Source: a bacterium
GTDB taxonomy: Bacteria; Krumholzibacteriota; Krumholzibacteriia; LZORAL124-64-63
Reading direction: 5' to 3'
Assembly (NCBI GenBank): GCA_014730255.1
Contig: WJIQ01000136.1
Span: forward strand, 1 to 64,000
DNA length: 64,000 bases
How positions within the stretch are numbered: the first letter of the stretch is position 1; each line of letters begins with the position of its first letter. Shown one piece after another: positions 4,440 through 63,970 of the stretch. The notes beneath the pieces were generated by a model, which saw only the letters and a list, made by a program, of their open reading frames with translations, searched no databases and had not been told where the DNA came from. The position numbers and the translations under genes are program-made.

Positions 4440-4598
4440 GATCGAATTCCCTTCTGCAGTGTGGTTGGCGGCAGGACGGCCGAGCCGGCGGGACCCCCGG
4501 GCCGCCGCCGGCAATGTTTTCGCATCGAGTCTCATTTTATCACAGATGAACGTATCCGCCCAGCGATTCTGTCGAACAATCAGGAACAGGAGCCATTA

Positions 4599-6593: not shown

Positions 6594-6691
6594 GGGCGTG
6601 GACTCCCGGATCGCGAGGCAGGGTGGCGGGACGAGCGCTTCGTCCCTGAACATACGTACCCATCCGTCAAAAGATCCAAGCGAATTCGGAT

Positions 6692-14368: not shown

Positions 14369-14373
14369 CGGTC

Positions 14374-14757: not shown

Positions 14758-14763
14758 GTCCCG

Positions 14764-18160: not shown

Positions 18161-18355
18161 CGTCACCGCCCCGTCCCGGAGTGCATAATGGCATGCATCG
18201 ACCGCTCTCGGCGGCCTGAGGCGGAGCCACGCAAGTGGCGTGCCATCACCGGGTACGGGCGGTCGCTCCAGCACCTTCCGTGCCACGGCGGGTGGTCGCG
18301 GGCGACCACGAAGCCGTCCGCGGGACCGCGATCAACGTCCGGGAATCCCGGGAGA

Positions 18356-45154: not shown

Positions 45155-45277
45155 GGGGCTCGCTCTCGGTGCGGCGCGATGCGCGGTCGGGGTGCAGGGA
45201 CCATCGACGGTCGCTCCCAGTCTACCGCTCGCCCCCGCCACCGGCGACCGTGAATTCCGGGGGCATTGCCTCGCCCA

Positions 45278-45306
45278 TCCGATTACGTTATAATCACGTA
45301 ATCTGA
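45278..45306 (+). promoter_or_regulatory. palindromic operator centred on a TATAAT box upstream of the S8/beta-helix peptidase gene
   Basis: GATTACGT-TATAATC-ACGTAATC: perfect 8-bp inverted repeats flanking a -10-like hexamer, in a local AT-rich island 60 bp upstream of ATG 45368. Confidence 0.5.
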
Positions 45307-45367
45307 TTTTTGCTAAGCGCGGCCGACCGGGCCGCTCCACGTCGTGCCACCTGGCCGGAGGCTGCTC

Positions 45368-48544: not shown

Positions 48545-48728
48545 TAGCGGCGGGGTCAGGGACGGACATGCGGGGGCCGCCCGCCGGGTACATCGTGGGG
48601 AGACCGGACCACCACGAGACGGCCGGAATCTGCTATCATCAAGGGGGGCCGGAACTGGGCCATACGATGTCACCGCGCGCCACCAACGGTTGCCGCCCCC
48701 TGGCCGCGAGGTGCCCTGGAGATCCACG

Positions 48729-50103: not shown

Positions 50104-53100
50104 TCACTTGACGAGGGTCATCCGCCCCATCTCCACGACGCCCCCCGCCACCAGCCGGTAGACGTACGTCCCCGACGGCAGCGAGCGCCCGCGCCCGTCG
50201 ACCCCGTCGAAGGCGACGCGGTGATGGCCCGCGTCCAGCGCTCCGTCGACCAGCGTGCGCACGAGCCGTCCGCGCACGTCATGGACGGTCAGGCGAGCGT
50301 GACCGGCGCGCGGCAGGCTGAAGGCCAGCGTCGTGCGCGGGTTGAACGGGTTCGGCGACGCCGCGGCCAGCGTGACCACCCCGGGCACGTCCGCCTCGCT
50401 CGCGGTGTCGACCAGCAGGCTGACCGGCACCACCACGGGCGCGCCGCCACTGGAGTAGACCACGATCTCGGCGGTGTAGGTGCCCGTCCCGAGCCCGGTC
50501 GCATCGAACGCGACCGTGACCTCGCTGGTCTCGCCGGCCGGCGTCTGGCCGGCCTCCAAGGCGAGGTCCAGCCACCCGATGTCGGCCTGGATCGTGAACG
50601 CGCCGTCGCTGACGTCGCTCACCAGCACGTCCTGGGCGTCGACCACCCGGACGCGGCACTGATCGCTGGCCGGCCCGGTGACCTCCCAGGCGAAGCTGCC
50701 GAGCGCGGCGTCGAGGTCGCTGGCCACCGTCTGCCAGCCGTCGCCGCGGTCGAGCTGCAGATCGATCCCGGTCACGCCGCCGTCAGCCGTCCAGAGGAAG
50801 GTGCGCGGCTCGCCGATGGACCAGACCTCGCCACCATTGGGTGCGACCACGGTGACGGTGCGATCGCGGTCGAGGCCGCCATCGGCCGACTTGCCCGGGC
50901 GGGATTCGCGCACCGCGAGCTGCCAGTGCAGTTCGGAGCCCGCCGCGCCCGTGCTGCTGATCGCGAGCACGCGCTCGGTCGACGCGCCCGGTGCGACCGT
51001 CACCGCCAGGCTGCCCGGCGAGACGTCGAGGCTCGCGGCCGCTGCCGGCGGCGTCGGCACGAAGGCGATCGCCCGGCCCGCCGTCAGCGTGCGCGCCCCA
51101 CTGGCGTAGCGGTTGTAGTAGGTGTAGGTCAGACCGTCCTGACCGTCCTGGATGCCGACCGTGGCGTAGCCGCGGGTGTAGTCGTTGTTGGCGACCTGGT
51201 CGTACTGGTAGACGATCAGGCCGTCGCCCGTCGCGGTCTGGTGCACGGCGGGATCGTGCAGGATCAGCTGGCAGTTCTGCTGGCCGTTGTGCCGGTTACG
51301 CATGCGGCTCCACTGCACGACGTACACGCCGTCCTCGACGTCGTGATGATGATAGACGCGGCCGCTGCCGTACTGCCACAGATCGTCCCAGAACACGGCC
51401 AGCAGCACGTCCGGCGAGCCGGCCGCCGGCAGGGCCCAGTTGCGCCAGTGCACGAGGTAGGTGTGCCCGAGCGAGACCCAGCCGTTGGAGCAGATCGAGA
51501 TGCGGTCGTAGTCGCGGCCGCGGTAGCGGAAGGTGAACGGCAGGTCCACCGTGCGCGTGTCGTCCTCCTCGTAGGCATAGTCGTCGAGGCCGACGCTGGT
51601 CCCCGGTCCACCGTGGGAGGGGTCGATCTCGCGCCAGGCGTAGACCGGCGCGTCGGGCGAGGGGTCCTGGTCGTCCCAGGCCAGGTAGCCCATGGTGCCC
51701 GGACCGAGGGGGCTGTCGTCGTTCGCGCCGGCGGTGGTCAGGCTCAGCTCCAGGACCTGCCGGGTGCCGTTCGCCGTGGTGACGGTCACGGTGCAGGCGG
51801 CGAGGTGGCCGCCCCACGCGGCCTCGGCCACGGCCAGGGGCCACGATGCCGAGGCGAGCGCGCCCGGCGCCACGTCGCCGAGATCGACCGTCACCGGCCC
51901 GGCCGGCAGCAGGAACGGGCTGGTGCTCGCGAACTCGGCCACCGCGCCGACCGCGCCGCTCGAGCCGTCGTTGCGCAGCTGCACCGCGAGATCGACCGTC
52001 TGTCCGGCCTGACCCGACCAGGCGCTCGAGACGAGCCGGAACGCCGGCGCCGCGATGGGCAGGCGCGCCTGCGAGGTCCACGCGCCGTCGCCCCCCTGGG
52101 CGATCACGTCGAGACGGACGTCGCGGCCGTCGGGCAGGTCGCCCGGCAGGGTCAGCGTCCAGGCCGCCGCGGTCACGGTCGCGCCGGGGCCGATGGTCCC
52201 GACCGCGACGGGCGCGCCGGCGACCGCGACACCGTCGGTGCGCGCAGCGACGTCCACGGTCACCCCGGCCACCGCCGTCTCGCCCAGGTTGGTGATCTGC
52301 AGCGAGAGCTCGCCGCTCTCGCCCGGGTCGGGCATGCCGTCCTGGCCGTCGCTCCAGAGCCAACCGCTCGCCGTGCAGTAGGCATCGACCGCGCCGACCT
52401 GCAGCTCGCCGCGGTGAGGCATGAGGTCATCGCCGGTCACGGTGATCGCCAGCGGACCGGGCGCGAGGTCGGTCGGTACGGACAGGCGGACCTGACCGGC
52501 CTGGTCGGTCCAGCCGGTCGTCTGCACCATGCCCTCGCGCCACACGGTGACCCGGGTGTCCGCGAGGGGCGATCCGCTCCGGCGGACGCTCACCGGCACC
52601 GTGTCCGCACCGGGCGGCAGCAGGGCCGGATAGTCGACGCTCGGCGCGACGGGCAGGGCCTGGCGCATCTCCGTCGCCGGATCGCCCATCAGGTTGTTCC
52701 AGGTCGACCAGATGGCGACGATGTCCGGCTCCGGCTCCTGGTACTGGCGGTACAGCTCGATCTTGCCGCGCGTGTGGGCATAGCCGAGGGTGCGGTCCGG
52801 CTCGTTCAGCGCACCCTCCCAGGCGCCGTGGAAGTAGCAGTTGTTGTAGCGCGTGTGCGTGCCGATGGTCGCGGTGCCGACCGCTCCGATGGCGCCGCCG
52901 TCCGGGTTGCGCAGCATGGCCTCGCTGTAGGTGTGCGGGCTCTCGAAGCTGCCCGAGGCGCAGGTGGGCATGATGGCGAACGGCAGCTCGCCCTGGTTGC
53001 TCAGGTTGTCGATGTACGTGGTGCTGAAGCCGCTGCAGCCGAGGTAGCCGCGGTAGGCGTAGACCGAGGCGCCGGCGTTCAGCTTCTCGAAGATCCGGCT

Positions 53101-54096
53101 CGCGAACGGTGCGCTCCAGATGGTGTCGACCTGGGTGTACGCGAGATCGAGCAGCTGCTGCTTGAGCCACTGGTTGACGTAGATCGTGGTGTCGCCGGAC
53201 GACGAGGGATCGCCGACGAGCACCCCGCGCGTGAACCAGCCGGGGTCGCCGAACGTGTCGGGCGCACGCTCGTAGCCGAGGATCTTGGCCACGATGCCCT
53301 CCAGCTCGCCGATCGAGCGGGCGCTGAGGCGTCCGATGTGCACGTCCGAGAGCACGTCGTCGCCGTCGAGCCGGGTGTACTCGTGGTCGCCCTCGCCGTA
53401 GTAGCCGGAGATGGACTCGCGCCAGGTGGCCACGCTCACCCCGCCGGTGGCGTCACCGACGAGGACGACGTGCGCGAGCGGCGCCTCGGCCGTGTCGTAG
53501 ACCTGCTGGATGTGGCTCTTGATCTGCGTGTTGGTGCCGCCGATCGCGGCCGTGGAGACCACCTCGACGGCGTAGCCCTGCCGGCGGCGCCACTCGGCCA
53601 GGGGCGCGATCGCCTCCTGCGTGCCCGCGGCCGAGGAGCAGATCATCAGGTACGTGCCGGGAACCTCGTCGTACTCCGCGCGGACGGCCGCGCCGCCGAG
53701 GGCCACGCTCGCGAGCATGTTGCCGAACGAGCGGGCGATGGTCGTCCGCGCCGGCGGCGCGGTGGCGGCCGGCGTGAAGGCCAGGTCGACCGTGCGCGCG
53801 GCGGGGCCATCACCATCGATGGTGACCGGCGCGACCTGCATCCCGTGCATGATCGCGGGCTCGCCCAGGGCGACGCCCGATGCCTCGCCGGCCAGATGCG
53901 CGGACATGCCCGGCGGGATCGCGACCAGCCCCTGCCACGAGGCGCCGTCTCCGGGCATGGTGACGTCGAGGCGCACGCCGACGTCGGTCCCGGTGGCCAC
54001 CGCCGGTTGCGGCGCCCGCGCGAGCGAGGTCACGGGGACGGTGGCGAGAACGGCGAGCAGGGTGGCGAGGAGCGGGAGCGGGGCACGGCGGCGCAT
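50104..54096 (-). CDS. secreted gingipain-like cysteine peptidase (C25 family) with Ig-like domains and C-terminal FlgD-Ig/T9SS-type sorting domain
   Basis: Start MRRRAPLPLLATLLAVLATVPVTSLA (AGGAGG RBS) within ORF 50104..54177; C25 catalytic region HVVLVGDATGGVS...YRGYLGCSGF...MPTCASGSFESPH; C-terminus SPNPFNPRTTLAFSLPRAGHARLTVHDVRGRLVRTLVD...GTYVYRL...MTLVK. Confidence 0.85.
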   Translation of the reverse strand: MRRRAPLPLLATLLAVLATVPVTSLARAPQPAVATGTDVGVRLDVTMPGDGASWQGLVAIPPGMSAHLAGEASGVALGEPAIMHGMQVAPVTIDGDGPAARTVDLAFTPAATAPPARTTIARSFGNMLASVALGGAAVRAEYDEVPGTYLMICSSAAGTQEAIAPLAEWRRRQGYAVEVVSTAAIGGTNTQIKSHIQQVYDTAEAPLAHVVLVGDATGGVSVATWRESISGYYGEGDHEYTRLDGDDVLSDVHIGRLSARSIGELEGIVAKILGYERAPDTFGDPGWFTRGVLVGDPSSSGDTTIYVNQWLKQQLLDLAYTQVDTIWSAPFASRIFEKLNAGASVYAYRGYLGCSGFSTTYIDNLSNQGELPFAIMPTCASGSFESPHTYSEAMLRNPDGGAIGAVGTATIGTHTRYNNCYFHGAWEGALNEPDRTLGYAHTRGKIELYRQYQEPEPDIVAIWSTWNNLMGDPATEMRQALPVAPSVDYPALLPPGADTVPVSVRRSGSPLADTRVTVWREGMVQTTGWTDQAGQVRLSVPTDLAPGPLAITVTGDDLMPHRGELQVGAVDAYCTASGWLWSDGQDGMPDPGESGELSLQITNLGETAVAGVTVDVAARTDGVAVAGAPVAVGTIGPGATVTAAAWTLTLPGDLPDGRDVRLDVIAQGGDGAWTSQARLPIAAPAFRLVSSAWSGQAGQTVDLAVQLRNDGSSGAVGAVAEFASTSPFLLPAGPVTVDLGDVAPGALASASWPLAVAEAAWGGHLAACTVTVTTANGTRQVLELSLTTAGANDDSPLGPGTMGYLAWDDQDPSPDAPVYAWREIDPSHGGPGTSVGLDDYAYEEDDTRTVDLPFTFRYRGRDYDRISICSNGWVSLGHTYLVHWRNWALPAAGSPDVLLAVFWDDLWQYGSGRVYHHHDVEDGVYVVQWSRMRNRHNGQQNCQLILHDPAVHQTATGDGLIVYQYDQVANNDYTRGYATVGIQDGQDGLTYTYYNRYASGARTLTAGRAIAFVPTPPAAAASLDVSPGSLAVTVAPGASTERVLAISSTGAAGSELHWQLAVRESRPGKSADGGLDRDRTVTVVAPNGGEVWSIGEPRTFLWTADGGVTGIDLQLDRGDGWQTVASDLDAALGSFAWEVTGPASDQCRVRVVDAQDVLVSDVSDGAFTIQADIGWLDLALEAGQTPAGETSEVTVAFDATGLGTGTYTAEIVVYSSGGAPVVVPVSLLVDTASEADVPGVVTLAAASPNPFNPRTTLAFSLPRAGHARLTVHDVRGRLVRTLVDGALDAGHHRVAFDGVDGRGRSLPSGTYVYRLVAGGVVEMGRMTLVK

Positions 54097-54235
54097 GGAT
54101 TCCTCCTGGCGGGGTGTGGCGGTGTGTAAGGGTTCATTGTACCGCATCATGGGCTGGGACAGGAGATGAAGTTCCACGCGAAGAGCCCGCCGGCCTTCTG
54201 GCCGGCGGGCTAGCGTCGACGGCCCCGGCCGGCCG

Positions 54236-57142
54236 TCAGCGGCCGTCGCCCGCGGCGACGAAGGCGGCCCAGACCGCAGGATGCGCCACGGGCACGCCGC
54301 CCGACGTGACCGCCGGCGAGGTCGCCAGGGAACGCCGGGTCGCGGTCAGGGCGGCCGCCCGCGAGGCGTGCGGATCGCCGACCAGGCGGGCGTGGTAGTC
54401 ACCCATGAACCGGGCCGCGCCCTCGCCCCCCACGTCCCACAGGGCGGCGACCACGCTGCGGGCTCCGGCGTAGAGGAAGCCGTGGACGAAGCCCACGAGC
54501 CCCTCCCCGTCGATCGACTCGCCGAGCGCCGACGAGCACGCCGAGAGCACCACCTGCTCGCACGGCAGATCCAGGGCGAAGATCTCGGCCACGTCCACGA
54601 AGCCGTCGTCGCCGTCGGTCGGCGCCAGGACGAGGCCGGAGTAGCGCGGACGGTCCTCGTTGAACACGCCGTGCGTGATCAGATGCACCGATCGCCAGGC
54701 GCCCCCGCGCGGCTCGGTCGCCAGCTTCCCGGCGGTCGCCGCCGCGCCCGCCCACCAGCGCGCCTGGCGCCCGTAGAGCGCGACCAGGCGATCCTGCTCC
54801 GCCCGCGCCGCGGGCACGGGCTCCAGCGCGTCGGCCCCGGCCACTCGCACGAAGACGCTGGCGCGGGCGGGATCGGGCATGGCCGGGTCGGCGAGCATCA
54901 GCAGCGGCGAGGCGTCGCGAGGCACCGGCTCGAGCGCCCGCAGGCGCGCCAGCGCGCTGGCCGACGGGGTGCGCACGACCTCGGTCGCCACCGCGAGCCA
55001 GGGCAGTTCGTGGTAGCGGCCATCCGACGTGTCGTCCAGCGGCAGGGCGGCCAGCGGCACGTAGTGCAGCGCGCCGTCGGGCACGACGATCAAGCGCTCG
55101 ACGTCCTCGAGGACGGGCCCGAGAGGGTCGAGGATCGCCTGCGCCAGCGCCCGCGCCGGATCCGCGTACCAGGCCGCAGCCGCGCCGGTCAGGGAAGGGT
55201 CGTGGAGCAACGGTCGCAGATCGGCCACCAGCCGCTCGATCTCCGCGCGGGCGGGCAACCGGTGGAACTCGAAGCGATCGTCGGCGATGAGCCAGACGTG
55301 CGACTGGCGCTCGCCGAGCTGGTACTCGAGCAGCGCCTCCCCCGGTGCGAGCACCTCGTCACGCAGAGTTACGAGGTCGATGGGCGCGGGGTAGCGCAGC
55401 TCGGCGTAGCGCGGGTCGGCCCGGCGCAGTTCGGCCTCGAGGACGGTGAGCCGGGACTCCAGACGCCGGATCTCCGCGGCGAGGGCGTCGGCGCTGTCCG
55501 GCGCGGCCTGGCGGCGCTCCTCCAGGCTGGCGATGCCCGCGAGCACGGCCTCTTCCCGCTCCCGGAACGACCGGTCGGCGCGCACGCGCAGATCCACCTC
55601 CGCCTCGGCCAGCAGGTCGAGCAGCGAGCGCGCACGGCCACGCTGGGCGATCTCCCACGCCCGCTCGCCGTGCCCACGGTCGGGGTCCCGCTCGTGACGC
55701 TCGTGGAGGACGGCCACCAGGGCGTCGAACGAGCGGCCGACCTGGCTGAAGTACCCGCGCTGGACCTCGGCCGACCCGCCGCTGCGGCGGCGGACCTGCT
55801 CCACGATGGCGATGGCCTCCTCGAGCAGGCGCTCGGCCCCGGCCAGGTCGCCGCGGCGGCGCGCCACCTCGGCCAGGCCCGACCGCGCCCATTCCTGGAC
55901 GTCGAAGTAGGCCAGCGGATCGGCCCGCGCGATCGCCTCGCGCAGGAGCGGTCCGGCCTCGTCGAGCCGGCCCTCGTCCAGGAGCGCGTACCCCTTGACC
56001 TCCAGGGCCTTGGCCGCGTCCATCGGCAGGCCGTATTCCTCGGCGTGCGCCAGGGCCCGGTCGAGGTCGTCGAGCCCGGTGGCGATGTCGCCGACGGCGC
56101 ACCGGCTCAACCCCAGCGCCAGCAGGATCGTGCTCTCGGTGCGCCGGTCGCCGGTCGCGCGGACCATCGCCAGCGCCTCCCCGTAGCGCGGCACCGCCTC
56201 GTCGTGGCGGCCCTGGAAGGCGAGGATCGAGGCCAGGTTGGTCAGGTACCAGCCGCGGCGGCGCGGGTCCGCGGTCAGGTCGGACGCCTCGCGGTACTGG
56301 GCGCGGGCGGCCTCGAGGTCGCCGATGAGGTAGAGGATGCCGGCCTGATCGCCGAGGCAGCCGGCCAGCACGCCCTGCCGTCCCGACTCGCGGGCCAGAC
56401 GCTCGGCGTGCTCGAGCCGGACCATGGCGCGGGTCAGCTCGCCGCGCATGGCGTGGGTGGTGCCGATGAAATGCAGCGCCTGGGCGCGACCGGCGGTGTC
56501 GTCCGCCTCGGTGTACAGCGCATAGGCACGCTCGCGCAGATCGAGCGCCGCGTCCAGGTCCATGCTCAGGCGAGCGACCACCGAACGGGCCAGCGTGGCG
56601 CTCGCCCGCCAGAGCACCGGCGCGAGCGGCGAGTCGGCGACGGCGTCCAGGTGGTCGGCCGCCGCGGCGACCTCGCGGGTCCGCAGCAGCACGCGCCCCA
56701 GGTCCAGGCGGCAACGCAGGGCGGTCAGCGGCTGGTCGAGCCGCTCGGCCAGCGGCAACGCCTCCTCCAGGAGCTCGCGCGCGGCGTCGGCCCGGTGAGC
56801 GGCCAGCTCGAGCGCGGCGCGGCGTTCCAGGGTCAGCAGCCGCATCGCCTCGTCGCCAGCTGCCACGGCCTCCTCGCCCAGCTCGACGTAGCGGGCCAGC
56901 GCGCCGTCCGGATCGGTGTCCTCGAGCTCGCGCAGCACGGCCAGATCGCCGCTGACCCAGCGCCAGCGCGGGGCCGCGTCCGCCGGAGCGGGCGCGGGCC
57001 GGTCGCCGGCAACCAGGGCGAGCCAGGCCCGCTCGCCGGGTCCGGGGTCGTTGGTCGGCGCAGCGCTGGCTGCGACCGCGAGCAGGGCGACGAGCGTCGC
57101 GGCCCACGCCAGGGGCGACATACCGGCGGGATGGCTTATCAT
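54236..57142 (-). CDS. TPR-repeat + CHAT-domain protein with signal peptide
   Basis: 968 aa; signal peptide, multiple TPR-like helical repeats, C-terminal CHAT (caspase-like) domain with HLITHGVF and LSACSSALG His/Cys dyad. Confidence 0.8.
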   Translation of the reverse strand: MISHPAGMSPLAWAATLVALLAVAASAAPTNDPGPGERAWLALVAGDRPAPAPADAAPRWRWVSGDLAVLRELEDTDPDGALARYVELGEEAVAAGDEAMRLLTLERRAALELAAHRADAARELLEEALPLAERLDQPLTALRCRLDLGRVLLRTREVAAAADHLDAVADSPLAPVLWRASATLARSVVARLSMDLDAALDLRERAYALYTEADDTAGRAQALHFIGTTHAMRGELTRAMVRLEHAERLARESGRQGVLAGCLGDQAGILYLIGDLEAARAQYREASDLTADPRRRGWYLTNLASILAFQGRHDEAVPRYGEALAMVRATGDRRTESTILLALGLSRCAVGDIATGLDDLDRALAHAEEYGLPMDAAKALEVKGYALLDEGRLDEAGPLLREAIARADPLAYFDVQEWARSGLAEVARRRGDLAGAERLLEEAIAIVEQVRRRSGGSAEVQRGYFSQVGRSFDALVAVLHERHERDPDRGHGERAWEIAQRGRARSLLDLLAEAEVDLRVRADRSFREREEAVLAGIASLEERRQAAPDSADALAAEIRRLESRLTVLEAELRRADPRYAELRYPAPIDLVTLRDEVLAPGEALLEYQLGERQSHVWLIADDRFEFHRLPARAEIERLVADLRPLLHDPSLTGAAAAWYADPARALAQAILDPLGPVLEDVERLIVVPDGALHYVPLAALPLDDTSDGRYHELPWLAVATEVVRTPSASALARLRALEPVPRDASPLLMLADPAMPDPARASVFVRVAGADALEPVPAARAEQDRLVALYGRQARWWAGAAATAGKLATEPRGGAWRSVHLITHGVFNEDRPRYSGLVLAPTDGDDGFVDVAEIFALDLPCEQVVLSACSSALGESIDGEGLVGFVHGFLYAGARSVVAALWDVGGEGAARFMGDYHARLVGDPHASRAAALTATRRSLATSPAVTSGGVPVAHPAVWAAFVAAGDGR

Positions 57143-57237
57143 GACGACCGGTGGACCTCCGGTTCGAGTACGATGGGAACCGACCGGACACAGTATGCGC
57201 CACCGTCGGGCGCATCACCACTTCCACGGAGCGCGAC

Positions 57238-57879
57238 GTGACCGACCCCCGCTCGCTCGAATCACCTGCGGAGTCGCTGGACGAGATCCGCGTCCGGGCG
57301 CTCGCCGGCGATCCGCGGGCGGAGACCGAGCTCTTCGCGCAGCTGCGCGTAAGATTCCTCTCCCTGGCGAAACGACGTGTGCAGCCGGACCACGCCGAGG
57401 ACGTGGTCCAGGAAGCGCTCGGGGTGGTCCTGCGGAAGTACCGCGACCTCGATCCCGACCGGGGCATCCTCGTCTGGAGTCTGACCGTGCTGCGCAACGT
57501 CATCGGCAATCACTACCAGGCCCGTCGTCGCGACACCGAGCAGACCACCCAGGTGGACGACTGGCACGCGGTGCCCGAGGCCTCGCTCGCCGACGACCCC
57601 GCCGATCCGCTGCTGGCCGAGGAGACGGCGCGGCGCCTCGAGGCGGCCATCGCCGAGCTGGCCCGCACCTCGCCGCGCTGCGGGCTGATCTTCGGCAAGC
57701 TGCTGGCCAGCCTCGAGGTGGGCGGCGGGCCCCGCGAGGTCAGCAGCCGGGCGCTCGCCATGGTCCAGCAGGAGCAGCCCGACCTCGCCCGCAACTCGTT
57801 CTACGTCGCGCTGCACCGCTGCCGCGCGCAGCTGCGGGCCCTGCTCGCCCGCGCCGACGGAAAGGCCGCTCATGCCTGA
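57238..57879 (+). CDS. ECF-family RNA polymerase sigma factor
   Basis: GTG start after GGAG within ORF 57151..57879 (ORF-track start would abut the divergent CHAT gene); sigma-70 region 2 (HAEDVVQEALGVVLRKY) and region 4 HTH. Confidence 0.7.
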   Translation: MTDPRSLESPAESLDEIRVRALAGDPRAETELFAQLRVRFLSLAKRRVQPDHAEDVVQEALGVVLRKYRDLDPDRGILVWSLTVLRNVIGNHYQARRRDTEQTTQVDDWHAVPEASLADDPADPLLAEETARRLEAAIAELARTSPRCGLIFGKLLASLEVGGGPREVSSRALAMVQQEQPDLARNSFYVALHRCRAQLRALLARADGKAAHA

Positions 57880-58627
57880 TCGCGACCGGGACCTGCTGGC
57901 CGCCTACGAGCTGAACCTCCTCACGCCCGAGGAGCGCGCACGGTTCGAGGCGGCGCTGGCCGACGACCCCGATCTCCTCGAGGACCTCTACGCCGCGGCA
58001 CCGGACACCGAGGCGCTGCTCGCCGATCCCGGCCGCTTCGCCGCCGCGGCCCGTCGAGCGCAGGCCGGCAGCGAGGCCGCGCGTCCACCGGGCTGGCGTC
58101 GGGTCGTCGAGCGGCTGCGCCCCCGCGTGCTCGCGCCGGTCGCCGTCGCCGCCGTGCTGGCGGTGATCGTGCTCTGGCCAGGCGGGCAGGACCTGCACGA
58201 GCTGGCCTCCGTCGAGCCCCTGCCGACGGTGCAGGTCTCGTTGCGGGCCGCCGCCCCGCAGGCCGATCGGCATTTCGAACGCGCCATGGTCCGCTACGCC
58301 GCCGGGTCCTGGTCGGACGCCGCGCGCGGGTTCGCCGGGGCGCTGGCCGCCGGCGGCCGGGACTGGCCGCGCCACGACCAGGCGCAGCTCTACCTCGGCA
58401 GCAGCCGCCTCCTCGACGGCGACGTCGCCGGGTCGCGGCCCCCGCTGGAGGCGGCATCCGGCTCGCCGCTGGCGCCGGTGCGCGACCGGGCGCAGTGGCT
58501 GCTCGCCCAGGGCCACCTCCTGGACGGCGACGCGCCGCGCGCCCGCGCGGTCCTGGCCGAGCTCGCGACGAGCCCCGTGTACGGCGATCGCGCCACCGAC
58601 CTGCTCGACGCCCTGCCGACCCCGTGA
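57872..58627 (+). CDS. anti-sigma factor (single TM, periplasmic helical-repeat domain)
   Basis: ATGA overlap with sigma stop; N-terminal LLAAYELNLLTPEERARFEAAL motif typical of anti-sigma N-domains; TM VAVAAVLAVIVLW. Confidence 0.65.
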   Translation: MPDRDRDLLAAYELNLLTPEERARFEAALADDPDLLEDLYAAAPDTEALLADPGRFAAAARRAQAGSEAARPPGWRRVVERLRPRVLAPVAVAAVLAVIVLWPGGQDLHELASVEPLPTVQVSLRAAAPQADRHFERAMVRYAAGSWSDAARGFAGALAAGGRDWPRHDQAQLYLGSSRLLDGDVAGSRPPLEAASGSPLAPVRDRAQWLLAQGHLLDGDAPRARAVLAELATSPVYGDRATDLLDALPTP

Positions 58628-58712
58628 GCGCTCGCGCCCGTTGATCTCTCGGACGACCGCTGATAGGATGGTGAGGCTCGCCTTCGGTCGACATCAGCCC
58701 GGGAGCCCCGCC

Positions 58713-59366
58713 ATGCGCATCGCCCACGCCCTCGCCAGCGTCCTCCTGATCGCCGTGCTCGCCTCGCCAGCGATGGCGCAGCAGATCGGCGGTGAGATCG
58801 GTAACCTCAACGATCCGGTCGGATCGGTCCCGAACATCCTCGTCGGCGACCAGTCCCTCGCCTACCTCGTGTTCCCGGGCGAGCAGGTCTCCTGCCCGGA
58901 CGACGGGTTCCGCCTCGACGCGGTCCGCATCTGGCTCGAGTTCTCCGAGGACCAGGTCCCCGTCTGCCTCAGCGTGTCGGGCGGCCTGCTCGACGCCGTG
59001 CCCGAGGGCGACGGCTTCGTGCCGGGCGACCCGATCTACCTGTCCGAGCCGCGGCTGATCGCCATCAACGATCCGGGCCTGCAGGTGATCGAGGTCTTCA
59101 CCGACGAGGTCGCCTCGTGCGAGATCCTCGAGGACGCCTACTTCCTGACCCTGCAGTTCATCGGCCCGGCCGAGGCCAGCCTCGGCGTCGACGACGAGCC
59201 CGCCCCCGGCATCGAGTTCATCGACAGCGGCCAGGGCTACGTCGACCTCAACGGGTTCGACCGTCCATCGGGCGGCAAGATCATCATCTGGGGCGACATC
59301 ATCTGCTGCATCACGACGCCGACCGAGCGCAGCTCCTGGCACCAGATCAAGCAGCTCTTTCGCTAG
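58713..59366 (+). CDS. secreted hypothetical protein (signal peptide; conserved Cys pairs)
   Basis: Start [22 protein letters not shown] within ORF 58641..59366; no family recognised. Confidence 0.45.
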
Positions 59367-59484: not shown

Positions 59485-59880
59485 ATGCCCAGCCAGCCCA
59501 GCCGCGAGCTCGAGACCTTCGAGAACCCATCGCCCGACCGGGACTACGAGATCGCCTTCGACTGCCCCGAGTTCACCTGTCTGTGCCCGCTGACCGGCCA
59601 GCCCGACTTCGCGCACTTCCACATCACCTACGTCCCGGACCGGCAGTGCGTGGAGCTGAAGTCGCTCAAGCTGTACCTCTGGAGCTACCGCGACCAGGGC
59701 GCCTTCCACGAGAAGGTCACCAACCAGATCCTGGACGATCTGGTGGCGGCCACGCGGCCGCGCATGATGGAGGTGCGTGGGGAGTGGTTCGTGCGCGGCG
59801 GCATCACCACCGAGGTGCGGTGCACCTACATCGACCCCGCCTGGGGCCGTGATCGCGACGGGTCCGGCAGCGTGTCCTGA
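59485..59880 (+). CDS. queF: NADPH-dependent 7-cyano-7-deazaguanine (preQ0) reductase, type I
   Basis: Start [15 protein letters not shown] (AAAGGA RBS) within ORF 59452..59880; catalytic CPEFTCLCP cysteine and QueF motif [12 protein letters not shown]. Confidence 0.85.
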
Positions 59881-59892
59881 TCCGCCCCGCGG

Positions 59893-60636
59893 TCAGGATC
59901 CAGGCTCCGTTGCCGGCGATCGGGTGCAACCTGGCAGCACGATCTCGGCGGTGGTCCCGACGCCCGTCGTCGACGCGATCCTCACCTCGCCGGCGTGATC
60001 CTCGACCACCAGGGCGACGACGCACAGGCCGAGGCCGGCCCCCCGGCGCTCGCTTCCGGTCCGCGTGGTGAAGAAGGGCTCGAACAGCCGGTCGCGGTCG
60101 GCCGGGTCGATCCCCGGCCCCGTGTCGGCGATGGTCAGTCGCACCATACCGGGTTCGCCCGTCGCCGCATCCTGACCGCCCGCCGTGCCCACCCTGATCT
60201 CACCGCCCCCGACGCCGGTGACCGCCTCGATCGCGTTCCGCAGCAGGTTGCACACCGCCTGCTGCAGGGGCGCCGCCGCGCCCATGACCACCGCGGGTGC
60301 GGCCGACCGATCGATCCTCAGGTCCACGCCGGCGGGCCAGGGCTCGAGCGAGCGAATGGCCGCGTCGACGACCTGCTCGACGTCCAGCGGTTCGTGCTCC
60401 TGCTCGTTGCGACCGCTCAGCGTCAGCAGCTGGAGGTTGACGGCCGCCATGCGCCCGGCGACCCGCCGCATGCTCTGGACCATGGGCACGGCCGGATGGT
60501 CGGCGGGCAGATCCTCGAGGATCAGGTCGGGGTACCCGACCAGGGGCGCCAGGAGATTGTTGAAATCGTGGGCCACCTGTCCGGTGACCCGGTAGACGAG
60601 GTCGCGGCGGTCGTCCGGCGCCCGGAAACCCGTCAT
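59893..60636 (-). CDS. orphan cytoplasmic histidine kinase core (HisKA + HATPase only)
   Basis: 247-aa C-terminal part of ORF 59893..61587; H-box VAHDFNNLLAPLVGY; N/G boxes LLRNAIEA, DTGPGI, GAGLGL; 4-bp overlap with upstream radical SAM gene. Confidence 0.75.
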   Translation of the reverse strand: MTGFRAPDDRRDLVYRVTGQVAHDFNNLLAPLVGYPDLILEDLPADHPAVPMVQSMRRVAGRMAAVNLQLLTLSGRNEQEHEPLDVEQVVDAAIRSLEPWPAGVDLRIDRSAAPAVVMGAAAPLQQAVCNLLRNAIEAVTGVGGGEIRVGTAGGQDAATGEPGMVRLTIADTGPGIDPADRDRLFEPFFTTRTGSERRGAGLGLCVVALVVEDHAGEVRIASTTGVGTTAEIVLPGCTRSPATEPGS

Positions 60637-61646
60637 GACGTCGTCCTTTCCTCGCCGGCCAGGACCAGCGGCAACCGGCGACCGCAGCCCGGGCAGTGCG
60701 GCGTCGCGAGGTCGCAGCGGGCCCCGCCGCGGCGACGCTCGATCACGAGCTCGCCGCAGTCGGGGCACCGAGTGTCCGACCACCGTGTCGGCCCGAGATT
60801 GCCGACGTAGACGTGGTGGATGCGCTCGGCGCAGGTCCGCGCCGCACGCTCCAGGGTCTCGGCCGGCGTCGGCGGAGCGTCGAGGCGCCAGGCCGGATGG
60901 TACGCCGACAGGTGCAGGGGAATGTCGGGCGAGAGGTCGGCCACGCGATCGCGCAGCCGCTCGATCTGCACGGGCGCGTCGTTGTGGCCCGGGATCACGA
61001 GATTGGTGATCTCGAGGTGGATGCCCGCGCGGTGGAGCGCCTCGATCGTCGCGAGCACCGGCTGCAGATGGCCCTTGCAGACGTCGCGGTAGAAGTCCTC
61101 GTCCAGGCTCTTGAGGTCGATGTTCGCCGCATCGATCAGCGGGATCAGCTCGGCCAGCGGCTCCGGATTCAGGTAGCCGTTGCTGACGATGACGTTGACC
61201 AGCTCCGCCTCGCGCACGAGCCGCGCGGTATCGCGCACGTACTCGAACCACACCAGGGGTTCGCTGTAGGTGTAGGCCACCCCGACCGAGCCCTCGCGCC
61301 GGGCGAGGTCGACGACGTCGGCGGGCGACAGCTCGGCCATGCTGGTGGCCTGGCCCTGGCTGAGCTGCCAGTTCTGGCAGAACGCGCAGTGCAGGTTGCA
61401 GCCGGCCGCGGCCACCGAGAGGATCGGCGCCCCGGGCAGGAAGTGGTAGAGCGGCTTCTTCTCGATGGGATCCATCCCGCACGCGGACAGGCGGCCGTAA
61501 TTGAAGGCCACCATGCGGCCGTCGCGATGGCCGCGCGTCCCGCAGGGGCCGTCCCGCCCCTCGGCCAGGACGCACGCCGTCGGGCACAGGTGGCAGGCGA
61601 CCTTGCCGTCCTCGCGGAGCTGCCAGTGAGCGGCCGTCGTGCTCAT
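60633..61646 (-). CDS. AmmeMemoRadiSam-system-type radical SAM enzyme (PFL-activase-like)
   Basis: 337 aa; CNLHCAFCQNW radical-SAM cysteine triad; N- and C-terminal Cys pairs (CHLCPTAC; CPDCG...CPGCG); overall layout of the AmmeMemoSam_rS family. Confidence 0.7.
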   Translation of the reverse strand: MSTTAAHWQLREDGKVACHLCPTACVLAEGRDGPCGTRGHRDGRMVAFNYGRLSACGMDPIEKKPLYHFLPGAPILSVAAAGCNLHCAFCQNWQLSQGQATSMAELSPADVVDLARREGSVGVAYTYSEPLVWFEYVRDTARLVREAELVNVIVSNGYLNPEPLAELIPLIDAANIDLKSLDEDFYRDVCKGHLQPVLATIEALHRAGIHLEITNLVIPGHNDAPVQIERLRDRVADLSPDIPLHLSAYHPAWRLDAPPTPAETLERAARTCAERIHHVYVGNLGPTRWSDTRCPDCGELVIERRRGGARCDLATPHCPGCGRRLPLVLAGEERTTS

Positions 61647-62767
61647 GACTCGCCTCCCAGCTCGGCCAGCGCCCAGGTGGCCACCGACCGCACCTCGGCG
61701 TCGGGATCCTGCTCGGCGACCCGCGCGATCAGCGGGCGCAGGTCACGGCGGCCGGTGTTGGCCGCGACGACCAGGGCGTTGCGCCGCAGCCCTTCCGGAT
61801 GCTGGCGCCACAGCGGGGTCCGTCGGAATCGCCGGCGGAACTCCCCCGCGTCCATGACCATCAGGTCGGCCAGGGTCAGCTCGGCATGGGCGCCGAGCGG
61901 CCCATACGCCGGATCGGGCGGCGGCCGCCGATCCGCCTGGCGCGCCGCCCGCGCGTTCCACGGGCAGACCTCCTGGCAGACGTCGCAGCCGAACAGACGC
62001 GCCCCCTGGTCGGCACGCTCGTCCGACGGCGCGCGTCCCTGCCACTCGATCGTCCAGGTGCTCAGGCAGCGGCCGGCGTCGACCTCGCGCGCGGCGACGA
62101 TCGCCCCGGTGGGGCAGGCGTCGAGGCAGCGGGTGCAGGACCCGCAGCGGTCGGTGCCCGGGCGCGGGTCCGCCGGCCGCTCGGCCACCTGGTACAGCGG
62201 TCGCGGCACGGCCGTCCAGTCGTCAACGTCGAGGTTCGTGGGCGCGACCGCAAGGAACAGCCCCGATCCCAGCGCCTCGTGGATGAGGCAGGTGTTGCGA
62301 CCGACGAAGCCGAGACCGGCCGCCTCCGCCCAGTCCCGTTCGAGGTAGGGGCCGGTATCGACGGCCGGGAACGCCCGCAGCTCCGGCCACTCCGCGCGCA
62401 GGTCGCCGAGCAGGGCCTTGACCGCACGCAGCAGGACGTCGTGATAGTCGCGACCGCGCGCGTACCGGGACACCGTGGCCAGCCAGTCCGCGCGTTCCTC
62501 GGCCGGCCAGCCGTCGGTGTAGCGCTGGCCGAAGACGAGGAGCGAGCGGGCCTCCGGGTTGCGCCGCCGCGGATCGGCGCGTTCCTCCCGCGTGCGCTCG
62601 AGGTAGTCGAGCCCGCCGTGCCGACGCCGATCCAGCCACCGCCGCCAGGCCTCGGCGTGGGGGGCCTGGCCGATCAGGGGCACGATGCCGACGAGGTCGA
62701 GCCGCCGCTCCGGTGCCCGCCGTCGGACGACGGCGACCAGGGCCGGGGCGGTGGCCACGGGGCTCAT
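61643..62767 (-). CDS. queG: epoxyqueuosine reductase
   Basis: 374 aa; double 4Fe-4S motifs CGSCTRCLDACP and CDVCQEVCPWN; C-terminal HEAT-like domain; ATGA overlaps on both sides. Confidence 0.85.
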   Translation of the reverse strand: MSPVATAPALVAVVRRRAPERRLDLVGIVPLIGQAPHAEAWRRWLDRRRHGGLDYLERTREERADPRRRNPEARSLLVFGQRYTDGWPAEERADWLATVSRYARGRDYHDVLLRAVKALLGDLRAEWPELRAFPAVDTGPYLERDWAEAAGLGFVGRNTCLIHEALGSGLFLAVAPTNLDVDDWTAVPRPLYQVAERPADPRPGTDRCGSCTRCLDACPTGAIVAAREVDAGRCLSTWTIEWQGRAPSDERADQGARLFGCDVCQEVCPWNARAARQADRRPPPDPAYGPLGAHAELTLADLMVMDAGEFRRRFRRTPLWRQHPEGLRRNALVVAANTGRRDLRPLIARVAEQDPDAEVRSVATWALAELGGES

Positions 62768-63714
62768 GGCGCCCCCAGCCTCTCGCGAGCCGCCGCGTAC
62801 TCGCGCTGCAGCCGCGCAACCAGCTCGGCGACCGGCGGCGCGTCGTCGATCAGGCCGGAGACCTGGCCGATCTCGAGCTCGCCGTCCTCGAGATCTCCCT
62901 CGAGCATGCCGCGCCGGGCCCGGCCGGTGCCGAGCAGCTCGGCCAGCTCCTCGCCGCTCGCCCCGCGCGCCTCGAGTTCGGCGACCTCATCGAAGAACCG
63001 GTTGCGGAGCATGCGCACCGGCACGTGCCGCTTCATCATCAGCATCGTGTCGCCGAAGCCGGCCGCCATCACCCGCTGCTTGTAGGCGTCGTGCCCGCTC
63101 GACTCGGCCGAGATGGCGAACCGCGATCCGATCTGCACGGCGTCCGCCCCGAGCGCCATGGCGGCCAGCCACTGCGCGCCCGTGGCGATGCCGCCGGCGG
63201 CGATCACCGGCACCGAGACCGCCGCCCGGCACTGCGGCATGAGCACCATGGTGGTCAGCTCCTCGCGACCATTGTGACCGCCGGCCTCGAAGCCCTCGCA
63301 GATCACGGCGTCGCAACCGGCGTCCTCGCACTTGCGTGCGAGGGCGGGGTTGGCCACCACGTGCATCACCGTGCAGCCGGCCTCCTTCAGTGGGCCGATC
63401 GCCCGGCGCGGCGAGCCGGCGCTGGTCACCACGATCCGGATCCCCTCCTCGAGGGTGATCTCGAGGACGTCGCGACTGTGCCCGTAGAGCAGCGGGATGT
63501 TCACGCCGAAGGGTCGGTCGGTCAGGTCGCGACACTTGCGCACCTGCTCCCGGAACAGATCGGGGCGCATGCTGCCGGAGCCGATCAGTCCGAGGCCGCC
63601 GGCGTTGCTCACCGCGGCGGCGAGCTTCGCTCCGCTCATGTACACCATCCCCCCCTGGACGAGGGGCAGATCGATCCCCAGCAGGCGGCACACGCGATTG
63701 GTCGACCAGTCCAT
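62764..63714 (-). CDS. FMN-dependent nitronate monooxygenase / FabK-like enoyl reductase family oxidoreductase
   Basis: 316 aa; GIDLPLVQGGMVYMSGAKLAAAVSNAGGLG, VIAAGGIATG TIM-barrel FMN motifs. Confidence 0.8.
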   Translation of the reverse strand: MDWSTNRVCRLLGIDLPLVQGGMVYMSGAKLAAAVSNAGGLGLIGSGSMRPDLFREQVRKCRDLTDRPFGVNIPLLYGHSRDVLEITLEEGIRIVVTSAGSPRRAIGPLKEAGCTVMHVVANPALARKCEDAGCDAVICEGFEAGGHNGREELTTMVLMPQCRAAVSVPVIAAGGIATGAQWLAAMALGADAVQIGSRFAISAESSGHDAYKQRVMAAGFGDTMLMMKRHVPVRMLRNRFFDEVAELEARGASGEELAELLGTGRARRGMLEGDLEDGELEIGQVSGLIDDAPPVAELVARLQREYAAARERLGAP

Positions 63715-63897
63715 CGAACACGAACCTCACCGGACGGTGTGACGAGCCCGGGCCGTCTCCGGGCGTTCCGCGTACCTCGCGACCGTACCATGTCCCCGGT
63801 CCGGTGGCACGCGCCGATCGTACGCCAAACTCCGCCGGCGCCGCTTTCTAGAGTAGTTCTGTCGCAAATAAATCAAGAACTTCCCGCAATTCGGGCT

Positions 63898-63927
63898 TTG
63901 AAGTCAACGCCTGTTAGCGTCTATGTT
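63898..63927 (+). promoter_or_regulatory. candidate sigma70-type promoter (TTGAAG-18-TATGTT)
   Basis: AT-richer intergenic stretch; hexamers with 18-bp spacing about 45 bp upstream of the GGAGG-ATG at 63971. Confidence 0.3.
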
Positions 63928-63970
63928 TGGGCACGTCCGGCCCCGCTTTCCAGATTACTTGGAGGTTCTC

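What the first reader, a model, noticed from the sequence alone, without database searches (positions are those of the whole stretch)
59485..63714. AmmeMemoRadiSam-type radical SAM enzyme translationally coupled to queG, an FMN oxidoreductase and an orphan histidine kinase, next to queF
On the minus strand, NMO/FabK-family oxidoreductase, QueG (epoxyqueuosine reductase), a radical SAM enzyme with the AmmeMemoRadiSam layout (CNLHCAFC core plus terminal Cys pairs) and a sensor-less HisKA-HATPase kinase are linked by three consecutive ATGA start/stop overlaps. queF lies immediately upstream on the other strand. The AmmeMemoRadiSam radical SAM enzyme is normally found with AMMECR1 and MEMO1 partners (absent here), and its function is unknown. 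Tight coupling to a queuosine-pathway enzyme and a kinase is a functional hint worth testing.
Basis: partly seen in the sequence, partly recalled or inferred. Interest (0 to 1): 0.55.

Follow-up and report, generated by a model that had tools for sequence, protein, structure and literature searches.

The report
Radical SAM gene coupled to queG
A radical SAM enzyme of unknown function, normally a partner of AMMECR1 and Memo proteins, sits in a conserved operon with the queuosine tRNA-modification gene queG in one candidate bacterial phylum; this is a modest, testable hint about its role, not a new system.

Summary
Four minus-strand genes are joined by three ATGA overlaps: a FabK-like NMO oxidoreductase, QueG, a radical SAM enzyme and a sensor-less histidine kinase. 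queF lies 12 nt beyond the kinase stop, but it is convergent, not upstream.

The radical SAM protein is a full member of TIGR04337 (328 bits, cutoff 220). It keeps 55 of 57 family-wide conserved positions and folds like PflA activase with two extra Cys4 sites.

NMO–queG–rSAM with queF on the opposite strand is conserved in 11 of 11 relatives (56–93% identity, Krumholzibacteria-like) despite rearranged flanks. From the QueG side it is present in 6 of 7 informative relatives. Outside that clade the link is absent: 0 of 80 rSAM loci and 0 of 71 QueG loci. There, 28 of 80 loci carry AMMECR1 or Memo next door.

The kinase occurs only in the window and one 93%-identical relative, so it is a recent insertion. 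No AMMECR1 or Memo gene occurs in the 64 kb window or in about 258 kb of related DNA. Whole genomes could not be checked.

Verdict: an ordinary family member in a phylum-specific operon. A functional tie to queuosine is plausible but unproven.

The parts
62764..63714 (-). First gene of the operon: NMO-family FMN oxidoreductase, FabK-like, 316 aa
   Evidence: PF03060 at 6.7e-64. TIGR03151 FabK scores 311 bits full-length, below its 453 cutoff. It lies upstream of queG in every Krumholzibacteria-like locus that has upstream DNA.
61643..62767 (-). queG, epoxyqueuosine reductase, 374 aa; ATGA overlap with the NMO stop codon
   Evidence: TIGR00276 at 232 bits, above the 200 cutoff. It has QueG_DUF1730 and Fer4_16 domains plus a C-terminal HEAT repeat. 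Eight Cys (C208, C211, C214, C218, C234, C261, C264, C268) are invariant in the clade alignment.
60633..61646 (-). AmmeMemoRadiSam-family radical SAM enzyme, 337 aa; ATGA overlap with the queG stop codon
   Evidence: TIGR04337 at 328 bits, above the 220 cutoff. The radical SAM motif is C83-N-L-H-C87-A-F-C90. Extra conserved Cys are C18, C21, C25, C35 and C294, C297, C318, C321. AF2 model: pLDDT 88.9, pTM 0.90. The closest solved fold is PflA activase.
59893..60636 (-). Sensor-less histidine kinase (DHp H-box 'AHDFNNLL' plus HATPase_c), 247 aa; ATGA overlap with the rSAM stop codon; a lineage-specific insertion
   Evidence: HATPase_c at 2.1e-23. Full-length matches to the kinase cores of VirA-like, AtoS and CckA models. 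Found only in L087, at 85% identity. Absent from the 10 other relatives. No response regulator is adjacent.
59485..59880 (+). queF, unimodular preQ0 reductase, 131 aa; convergent with the operon
   Evidence: TIGR03139 at 178 bits, above the 87 cutoff, and PF14489. It lies on the opposite strand 0-7 kb past the rSAM gene in all 11 relatives with flanking DNA.
63715..63970 (.). Intergenic region upstream of the operon, shared with a divergent gene that starts near 63971 (plus strand, MKGLICLAGC...)
   Evidence: Read directly from the sequence. No sigma-70 consensus, terminator or Rfam element was found.

Best explanation
What is shown. These genes form a real, translationally coupled operon from a Krumholzibacteria-like bacterium. 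Its conserved core is a FabK-like NMO oxidoreductase, queG and a radical SAM gene, with queF converging on its 3' end. The histidine kinase is a recent insertion and is not part of that core. The radical SAM protein is an orthodox member of the AmmeMemoRadiSam family (TIGR04337), not a diverged paralogue.

What is inferred about mechanism. The three Cys of C83-x3-C87-x2-C90 hold a [4Fe-4S] cluster that reductively cleaves SAM to a 5'-deoxyadenosyl radical. That radical abstracts a hydrogen atom from a bulky, probably macromolecule-borne substrate, as in its closest structural relative, PflA activase. An N-terminal Cys4 site and a C-terminal double-CxxC ribbon bind further metal.

What is inferred about role. 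I think it most likely performs the same, still unidentified, reaction as its homologues elsewhere that sit next to AMMECR1 and Memo genes. The partners, if any, would be encoded outside the window. On this reading, its fixed place behind queG reflects co-expression in a phylum-specific housekeeping operon of Fe-S and flavin redox enzymes, not a new step of queuosine synthesis.
For: - Family assignment is well above the curated cutoff.
- Fifty-five of 57 positions that are >=90% conserved in 77 homologues from other phyla are equally conserved in the queG-linked clade. The other two keep the same majority residue.
- Mean identity of the clade to other members is 43%, the same as among those other members.
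- The clade is nested inside the family in an NJ tree, among members that have AMMECR1/Memo neighbours.
- The AF2 model is confident, and its best PDB match is PflA activase (E 5e-14, TMt 0.78).
- The operon tolerates unrelated genes. An MFS/PTR2 transporter sits between NMO and queG in L005, L006 and L170, and a kinase follows the rSAM gene in the window and L087.
- One relative keeps NMO-queG with no rSAM gene downstream (L091).
- No queG or queF lies near the family in 80 loci from other phyla. No such rSAM lies beside 71 more distant queG genes.
- The family also occurs in archaea (L035, L038, L056, L073, L082, L083). From my own knowledge, archaea do not make queuosine.
Against: - The core survived at least four or five rearrangements of both flanks, over rSAM identities of 56-93% and QueG identities of 48-71%. 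The queG/rSAM junction usually overlaps by 4 nt or 1 nt. That degree of conservation usually signals a functional tie.
- The rSAM gene is bracketed by two queuosine genes.
- A QTMAN-like (queuosine mannosyltransferase-like) glycosyltransferase lies 4-15 kb away in six loci.
- No AMMECR1 or Memo gene was found in about 258 kb of DNA from the clade. The assumed partners remain unseen.
Confidence: 0.5

Rival explanations
1. The radical SAM enzyme acts directly in queuosine metabolism in this phylum. It might modify Q- or oQ-tRNA or a 7-deazaguanine intermediate, possibly with the NMO flavoprotein and the nearby QTMAN-like glycosyltransferase, to make or remodel a queuosine derivative. If so, the context would reveal that the AmmeMemoRadiSam family works on a nucleobase.
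For: - queG-rSAM adjacency holds in 11 of 11 loci from the rSAM side and 6 of 7 from the QueG side, mostly with overlapping stop and start codons.
- queF lies on the other side of the rSAM gene in all 11.
- A QTMAN_N glycosyltransferase is at window 43982-45160 (1.9e-60) and near the cluster in L005, L006, L088, L089 and L170.
- The flanks are rearranged but the core is kept.
- From memory, the abstract of Burroughs et al. 2019 (JBC 294:10211) links Memo/AMMECR1/radical SAM contexts to nucleotide-base modification. The paper is not held; it is cited in PMC7159879.
Against: - The link is absent in every other lineage sampled (0 of 80 and 0 of 71).
- Recurrent neighbours elsewhere are AMMECR1/Memo, ABC ATPases, BacA, heptaprenyl diphosphate synthase component I and others, never queuosine genes.
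- The family occurs in archaea.
- L091 keeps NMO-queG without the rSAM gene.
- The sequence shows no clade-specific change at conserved sites.
Confidence: 0.25
2. The radical SAM enzyme, and perhaps the NMO flavoprotein, serves QueG itself. It could be an activase- or maturase-like factor or part of a shared electron-supply chain. Tight translational coupling would then reflect a stoichiometric complex.
For: - The fold is that of a protein-directed activase (PflA).
- The 4-nt queG/rSAM overlap is conserved in most relatives.
- NMO-queG adjacency is conserved even where the rSAM gene is missing (L091, L096).
- QueG and the rSAM enzyme both need low-potential electrons (general knowledge of the two enzyme classes).
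Against: - From my own knowledge, characterised QueG enzymes (B. subtilis, E. coli) work without such a partner.
- None of the 71 more distant queG loci has a TIGR04337-like radical SAM gene or an NMO gene adjacent; 56 of them have enough downstream DNA and 53 enough upstream DNA to show one.
- Orthodox sequence conservation argues that the enzyme keeps the family's usual substrate.
Confidence: 0.1
3. The protein replaces a known radical SAM step of queuosine metabolism: either QueE (CDG synthase) or QueL (the queuine lyase that regenerates preQ1).
For: Both are radical SAM enzymes of the pathway. QueL is described in PMC11570991, PMC11477304 and PMC12632869. The gene sits beside queF, whose product is preQ1.
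Against: - The QueE model TIGR03963 scores 23.5 bits against a cutoff of 260.
- QueL (UniProt Q186P0) is filed under IPR006638, the Elp3/MiaB/NifB-type core, in Table S6 of PMC11130926. The window protein's nearest families are PflA-, YjjW- and NrdG-type activases.
- There is no sign of neofunctionalisation.
- The QueL sequence itself could not be obtained for a direct alignment.
Confidence: 0.05
4. The kinase regulates or senses the queuosine/radical SAM module.
For: It has an ATGA overlap with the rSAM stop codon. It is a coding-quality ORF (GC3 0.90). It is conserved at 85% identity in L087.
Against: - It is absent from 10 of 11 relatives, where queF abuts the rSAM gene directly or a different gene intervenes.
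- It has no sensor domain and no adjacent response regulator.
- It has diverged more than its neighbour between the window and L087 (85% against 93% identity).
Confidence: 0.03

Closest known systems
AmmeMemoRadiSam three-gene system (NCBIfam TIGR04335 AMMECR1-like protein A, TIGR04336 Memo-like protein B, TIGR04337 radical SAM enzyme); function unknown
   Same: The radical SAM component matches fully. It scores 328 bits against the 220 cutoff, has all eleven conserved Cys, keeps 55 of 57 family-conserved positions, and nests within the family tree.
   Different: No A or B gene lies in the window or within 6-8 kb in 11 relatives. Instead the gene is fixed behind queG. Partner adjacency is not universal either: 28 of 80 loci elsewhere have it.
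Pyruvate formate-lyase activating enzyme PflA and other glycyl-radical enzyme activases
   Same: It is the closest solved fold (3c8f, 8fo0, 3cb8; Foldseek E 5e-14 to 4e-13, TMt 0.75-0.78). It is also the only PDB sequence match. Both share the CX3CX2C radical SAM core.
   Different: Identity is only about 19%. The PflA model scores 63 bits against a 232 cutoff. The window protein is about 90 residues longer, with an N-terminal Cys4 beta-domain and a C-terminal double-CxxC ribbon. No glycyl-radical enzyme is nearby.
Radical SAM enzymes of queuosine metabolism: QueE (CDG synthase) and QueL (queuine lyase, C. difficile CD1684 / Q186P0)
   Same: They are radical SAM enzymes encoded in queuosine gene clusters.
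   Different: The QueE model is far below cutoff. QueL is catalogued under a different radical SAM core type, IPR006638. Neither is known to be translationally coupled to queG.
Canonical queG loci in other bacteria
   Same: The QueG here is an orthodox match: TIGR00276 above cutoff, DUF1730 and Fer4_16 domains, eight cluster Cys.
   Different: In 71 more distant metagenomic queG loci, neither an NMO gene nor a TIGR04337-like radical SAM gene is adjacent. The NMO-queG-rSAM arrangement is specific to this clade.

Membership tests
AmmeMemoRadiSam system radical SAM enzyme (TIGR04337) | Whole-protein HMM score above NCBI's curated cutoff | tested here: met
   328.3 bits against a cutoff of 220, covering residues 6-329 and profile positions 2-333 of 349. 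The next family scores 63 bits.
AmmeMemoRadiSam system radical SAM enzyme (TIGR04337) | CX3CX2C radical SAM motif plus the family's conserved accessory cysteines (N-terminal CxxCxxxC...C; C-terminal CxxC...CxxC) | tested here: met
   C83, C87 and C90 form the motif. C18, C21, C25, C35 and C294, C297, C318, C321 are all >=90% conserved in 77 members from other phyla and invariant in the clade.
AmmeMemoRadiSam system radical SAM enzyme (TIGR04337) | Encoded with AMMECR1-like (TIGR04335) and Memo-like (TIGR04336) partners | tested here: not met
   Locally: no hit to HMMs of either partner in the six-frame window at E<=10. None in about 258 kb of clade DNA. None in the Pfam lists of 11 neighbourhoods. 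The seeds used for the HMMs were verified as TIGR04335/6. Genome-wide presence could not be tested with these tools.
AmmeMemoRadiSam system radical SAM enzyme (TIGR04337) | Orthology rather than diverged paralogy (position in tree, conserved sites) | tested here: met
   The clade is nested within the family (NJ tree). Fifty-five of 57 conserved positions are retained. Its identity to other members equals the identity among those members, 43%.
Epoxyqueuosine reductase QueG (TIGR00276) | HMM above cutoff; DUF1730 plus double 4Fe-4S domain; eight cluster cysteines | tested here: met
   232 bits against a cutoff of 200. PF08331 and PF13484 are present. Eight Cys are invariant in the clade alignment. 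Enzyme activity is not testable here.
QueE, 7-carboxy-7-deazaguanine synthase | HMM score above cutoff | tested here: not met
   TIGR03963 scores 23.5 bits against a cutoff of 260. No QueE structure appears among the top 50 Foldseek matches.
QueL, queuine lyase (C. difficile CD1684, Q186P0) | Sequence similarity to the characterised enzyme; Elp3/MiaB/NifB-type core (IPR006638) | not testable with these tools
   The sequence and the primary paper are not held. Only the InterPro class is available, from Table S6 of PMC11130926. The window protein's best families are PflA-type activases.
Glycyl-radical enzyme activase (PflA, TIGR02493) | HMM above cutoff; adjacent glycyl-radical enzyme | tested here: not met
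   62.6 bits against a cutoff of 231.75. No glycyl-radical enzyme lies in the window. Only the fold is shared.
Enoyl-ACP reductase FabK (TIGR03151) | HMM above the equivalog cutoff | tested here: not met
   311 bits against a cutoff of 453, although the alignment is full-length (2-302 of 307). Pfam NMO membership is met at 6.7e-64.
Two-component sensor histidine kinase | DHp H-box plus HATPase_c; a sensor domain; a cognate response regulator nearby | tested here: inconclusive
   The kinase core is present. There is no sensor domain: the H-box starts at about residue 20 of 247. No response regulator is adjacent; the nearest is at 17171-18286.

The most novel reading that the evidence does not exclude
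In Krumholzibacteria-like bacteria, the AmmeMemoRadiSam-type radical SAM enzyme works without AMMECR1/Memo partners as part of a queuosine-tailoring module: the NMO flavoprotein, QueG, the rSAM enzyme and a nearby QTMAN-like glycosyltransferase. It would act on tRNA-bound queuosine or epoxyqueuosine, or on a 7-deazaguanine precursor. That would be the first experimental handle on what this widespread family does. By extension, it would bear on the human disease-linked AMMECR1 and MEMO1 proteins.
Probability: 0.2. Interest if true: 0.75.

Novelty: new member of a known kind. Interest (0 to 1): 0.4.

Why it matters
The AmmeMemoRadiSam radical SAM family is spread across bacteria and archaea. Its usual partners, AMMECR1 and Memo, have human homologues linked to disease. 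No biochemical function is known for the radical SAM enzyme or for the three-gene system it belongs to.

A gene order kept through many rearrangements puts the enzyme between two queuosine genes. That gives a concrete, cheap hypothesis to test: a tRNA or 7-deazaguanine substrate, or a role with QueG.

If the link is only co-expression, the finding is an ordinary lineage-specific operon. The work also shows that the kinase 'coupling' is a recent accident. It further shows that bacteria of this clade carry a close homologue of the eukaryotic queuosine mannosyltransferase.

Tried and rejected
- Literature. 'AmmeMemoRadiSam' returns only incidental mentions. The primary papers are not held: Yuan 2019 PNAS on QueL, the 2024 MMBR review cited for the queuosine pathway, and Burroughs 2019 JBC on Memo/AMMECR1. 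What I say about Burroughs 2019 is therefore from memory plus a citing sentence. QueL could be placed only by its InterPro class.
- ORF clustering. The first all-vs-all clustering of neighbour ORFs merged real AMMECR1/Memo genes with conserved antisense ORFs that overlap the rSAM gene. I replaced it with verified seeds and iterated HMMs.
- Genome scan. It therefore served as the out-group sample. In-group evidence came from the look-up of encoding contigs and the metagenome scan with QueG.
- Genome-wide partner search. I could not check for AMMECR1/Memo, or for queE, queC, queD, tgt and queA, across the clade's genomes. Homology searches list only the 120 best hits and cannot be filtered by taxon. 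Contigs cannot be walked. I considered a GC-biased DNA pattern for the AMMECR1 'LRGCIG' motif in metagenomes. I dropped it because of an estimated sensitivity of about 35% and no way to assign hits to the clade.
- Regulatory scans. Sigma-70 promoter, terminator and Rfam scans of 57-64 kb, including a check for preQ1 riboswitches, found nothing relevant.
- Rejected readings. PflA, QueE or a diverged paralogue (scores and conservation). A kinase-regulated module (kinase absent in relatives).


Full report
**Observation.**
- On the minus strand, four ORFs run head to tail: 62764-63714, 61643-62767, 60633-61646 and 59893-60636. ATGA stop/start overlaps lie at 62764-67, 61643-46 and 60633-36.
- All four have the high third-position GC of real genes in this 72% GC genome, 0.90-0.93. 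The long overlapping ORFs in other frames are high-GC artefacts.
- queF (59485-59880, plus strand) ends 12 nt from the kinase stop. It is therefore convergent with the operon, not upstream of it.
- Four-base overlaps are frequent here. Four of the other 29 co-directional pairs in the window have one. Three in a row indicates an operon rather than something unusual.

**Gene identities.**
- Gene 1 is an NMO-family FMN oxidoreductase (PF03060, 6.7e-64). It aligns full-length to FabK but scores below the equivalog cutoff (311 against 453 bits).
- Gene 2 is QueG (TIGR00276, 232 against 200 bits; DUF1730 plus Fer4_16). Eight cluster cysteines are invariant in the clade.
- Gene 3 matches TIGR04337, the AmmeMemoRadiSam radical SAM enzyme, at 328 bits against a cutoff of 220. 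The next families (YjjW and PflA activases) score 63 bits, and a QueE model scores 23 bits.
- Gene 4 is a 247-residue histidine kinase core. It has an 'AHDFNNLL' H-box from about residue 20 and a HATPase_c domain, with no sensor domain.
- queF is the unimodular type (TIGR03139, 178 bits).

**Rest of the window.**
- I called genes by GC3 and scanned them against Pfam. I also ran HMMs of the AMMECR1-like and Memo-like partner families against the six-frame translation.
- No partner gene exists in the 64 kb, even at E<=10.
- The window does contain a QTMAN_N plus GT1 glycosyltransferase at 43982-45160 (1.9e-60). This is a homologue of the eukaryotic queuosine-tRNA mannosyltransferase.

**Lineage.** The closest homologues of the radical SAM protein (56-93% identity) come from metagenome-assembled genomes. 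Where named, they are Candidatus Krumholzibacteria or Krumholzibacteriia.

**Neighbourhood conservation, from the radical SAM side.** Eleven relatives were inspected: L001-L006, L087-L089, L170 and L171.
- All eleven have queG immediately upstream on the same strand. The junction usually overlaps by 4 nt or 1 nt.
- All ten with upstream DNA have the NMO gene ahead of queG.
- All have queF on the opposite strand downstream. It directly abuts the rSAM gene in eight. The kinase sits between them in L087, and a spermine-synthase/TPR gene does so in L004 and L171.
- The flanks differ widely. Upstream neighbours include multihaem cytochromes, an aminotransferase, HD/YgjP, an MptE-like gene and a beta-lactamase. 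Downstream neighbours include sigma/CHAT, peptidase C25, peptidase S8 plus QTMAN-like, and an aminotransferase. The core has therefore survived several rearrangements.
- The core also tolerates unrelated insertions. An MFS/PTR2 transporter sits between NMO and queG in L005, L006 (fused to NMO) and L170.
- The kinase follows the rSAM gene only in the window and in L087. There the rSAM is 93% identical and the kinase 85% identical.

**Neighbourhood conservation, from the QueG side.** A metagenome scan with a clade QueG alignment returned 80 loci.
- Nine have QueG at >=51% identity, that is, clade-like.
- Of the seven with DNA downstream, six have the rSAM gene directly after queG.
- L091 does not. 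It keeps NMO-queG followed by FAD/ferredoxin-type oxidoreductases.
- The other 71 loci (QueG <=44% identical; 56 with at least 600 bp downstream) have neither the rSAM nor the NMO gene.

**The family elsewhere.** A scan of species-representative genomes returned 80 loci from many bacterial phyla and several archaea, at 38-52% identity.
- None has queG or queF within 7 kb; 66 have room upstream for queG.
- AMMECR1-like and/or Memo-like genes lie within the flank in 28 of 80, often as a roughly 465-residue fusion directly upstream. Among the 48 loci with at least 2 kb on both sides, 20 have them.
- Other recurrent neighbours are unrelated to queuosine: an ABC ATPase, a kinase, an amidase, LigA, heptaprenyl diphosphate synthase component I, BacA and GT9.

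**Is the clade's enzyme diverged?** No.
- In an NJ tree the queG-linked sequences form one clade nested within the family, next to members with partner genes.
- Of 57 positions >=90% conserved in 77 other members, 55 are equally conserved in the clade. The other two keep the same majority residue.
- Only five clade-specific invariant positions exist, all conservative or at variable sites.
- Mean identity of the clade to the others equals that among the others, 43%.
- The AF2 model is confident (pLDDT 88.9, pTM 0.90).
- Its best solved relatives are PflA activase structures (E 5e-14, TMt 0.78, 19% identity). No structure of this family, and no QueE, appears near the top.
- The extra elements are a beta-rich N-terminal domain carrying C18, C21, C25 and C35, and a C-terminal ribbon carrying C294, C297, C318 and C321.

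**Known radical SAM steps of queuosine metabolism.**
- QueE is excluded by score.
- QueL converts queuine to preQ1 in C. difficile. It is listed as UniProt Q186P0 under IPR006638, the Elp3/MiaB/NifB-type core. That is a different subgroup from the PflA-like activases nearest to this protein.
- I could not obtain its sequence for a direct comparison.

**Regulatory elements.** No riboswitch or other Rfam element, sigma-70 consensus or intrinsic terminator was found at 57-64 kb.

**Interpretation.**
- Shown: the genes and overlaps are real. The rSAM protein is an orthodox TIGR04337 member. NMO-queG-rSAM with convergent queF is a conserved, clade-specific block. The kinase is a recent insertion. 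Partner genes are not local.
- Inferred: the radical chemistry and a macromolecular substrate, from the motif and the PflA-like fold.
- Open: whether the link to queG is biochemical.
- For a functional link: conservation through rearrangements, overlapping junctions, bracketing by queG and queF, and a nearby QTMAN-like gene. A published computational suggestion, recalled from memory, ties Memo/AMMECR1/radical SAM systems to nucleobase modification.
- Against a functional link: total absence outside one phylum-level clade, presence of the family in archaea, insertion of unrelated genes into the operon, one relative lacking the rSAM gene after queG, and no sequence sign of a changed function.
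- Probabilities: about 0.5 for 'orthodox enzyme, co-expressed only'; 0.25 for a direct queuosine or tRNA role; 0.1 for a QueG-accessory role; less for QueE/QueL replacement or kinase control.

**Limits.**
- The in-group loci share ancestry. Eleven of 11 is not eleven independent events, although flank turnover shows real time depth.
- The out-group samples are the first 600 pattern matches, not a designed survey.
- Whole-genome presence of AMMECR1/Memo and of the other queuosine genes in this clade could not be examined with the tools available. That check is the single most informative missing result.

Noticed in passing
window 43982-45160 (-); also L005 13151-14167, L006 16570+, L088 12948-14117, L089 16547+, L170 11072-12127: A QTMAN_N (PF12038, 1.9e-60) plus GT1 glycosyltransferase, a bacterial homologue of the eukaryotic queuosine-tRNA mannosyltransferase. 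It lies 4-15 kb from the queG/queF block in six loci of the clade, usually in the order queF, peptidase S8, QTMAN-like. It hints at glycosylated queuosine in these bacteria.
   Followed up: partly
L091 3895-11065: One clade-like metagenomic contig keeps NMO-queG but has no radical SAM gene downstream. FAD/4Fe-4S oxidoreductase genes follow instead.
   Followed up: partly
L005 5163-6701, L170 3321-4886, L006 4340-6925: An MFS/PTR2-type transporter is inserted between NMO and queG in a subclade. In L006 it is called as a single 861-aa NMO-MFS fusion. The QueG of L006 looks truncated or frameshifted: the 269-aa call has no Pfam hit, and tblastn matches only the C-terminal part.
   Followed up: no
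window 11321-14932 (-), 14764-17157 (-), 17171-18286 (-), 36200-38230 (-): A cluster of large signalling proteins. Two are histidine kinases fused to HD_5 (HD-GYP-like) domains, one of them also with GAF. A response regulator-GGDEF protein follows them. A STAS-HD_5 protein lies further on. Together they suggest an elaborate c-di-GMP circuit.
   Followed up: no
window 1203-4535, 4599-6695, 45344-48544, 48690-50072, 50104-54177: Five large secreted hydrolases all end in a FlgD Ig-like domain: two S8 subtilases, an M1 peptidase, an esterase and a C25 gingipain-like peptidase. The same tail is seen in relatives and looks like a shared C-terminal sorting or anchoring tag.
   Followed up: no
window 54236-59366; L001 9489-14556, L003 9522-14677: A TPR-CHAT protein (969 aa) is divergently paired with an ECF-type sigma factor, a putative anti-sigma (weak TPR hit) and a DUF7451-like secreted protein. 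The block is conserved next to queF in two relatives.
   Followed up: no
L085 3817-4344, L029 121-894 and cluster mates: In other phyla, heptaprenyl diphosphate synthase component I and BacA (undecaprenyl-diphosphatase) each recur near the TIGR04337 gene in 4 loci. This echoes a published suggestion, recalled from memory, of an isoprenoid link for Memo systems.
   Followed up: no
window 9176-10452 (-): An Sbt_1-type Na+-dependent bicarbonate transporter has a 4-nt overlap with a P-II-like regulator gene. It resembles the cyanobacterial SbtA/SbtB pair, here in a non-phototroph lineage.
   Followed up: no
window 59893-61587 (-), 54281-57241 (+), 43982-48850 (-): Very long stop-free ORFs lie in wrong frames or antisense to real genes (564, 986 and 1622 aa). 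They are artefacts of 72% GC. Conserved antisense ORFs also contaminated the neighbour clustering.
   Followed up: yes
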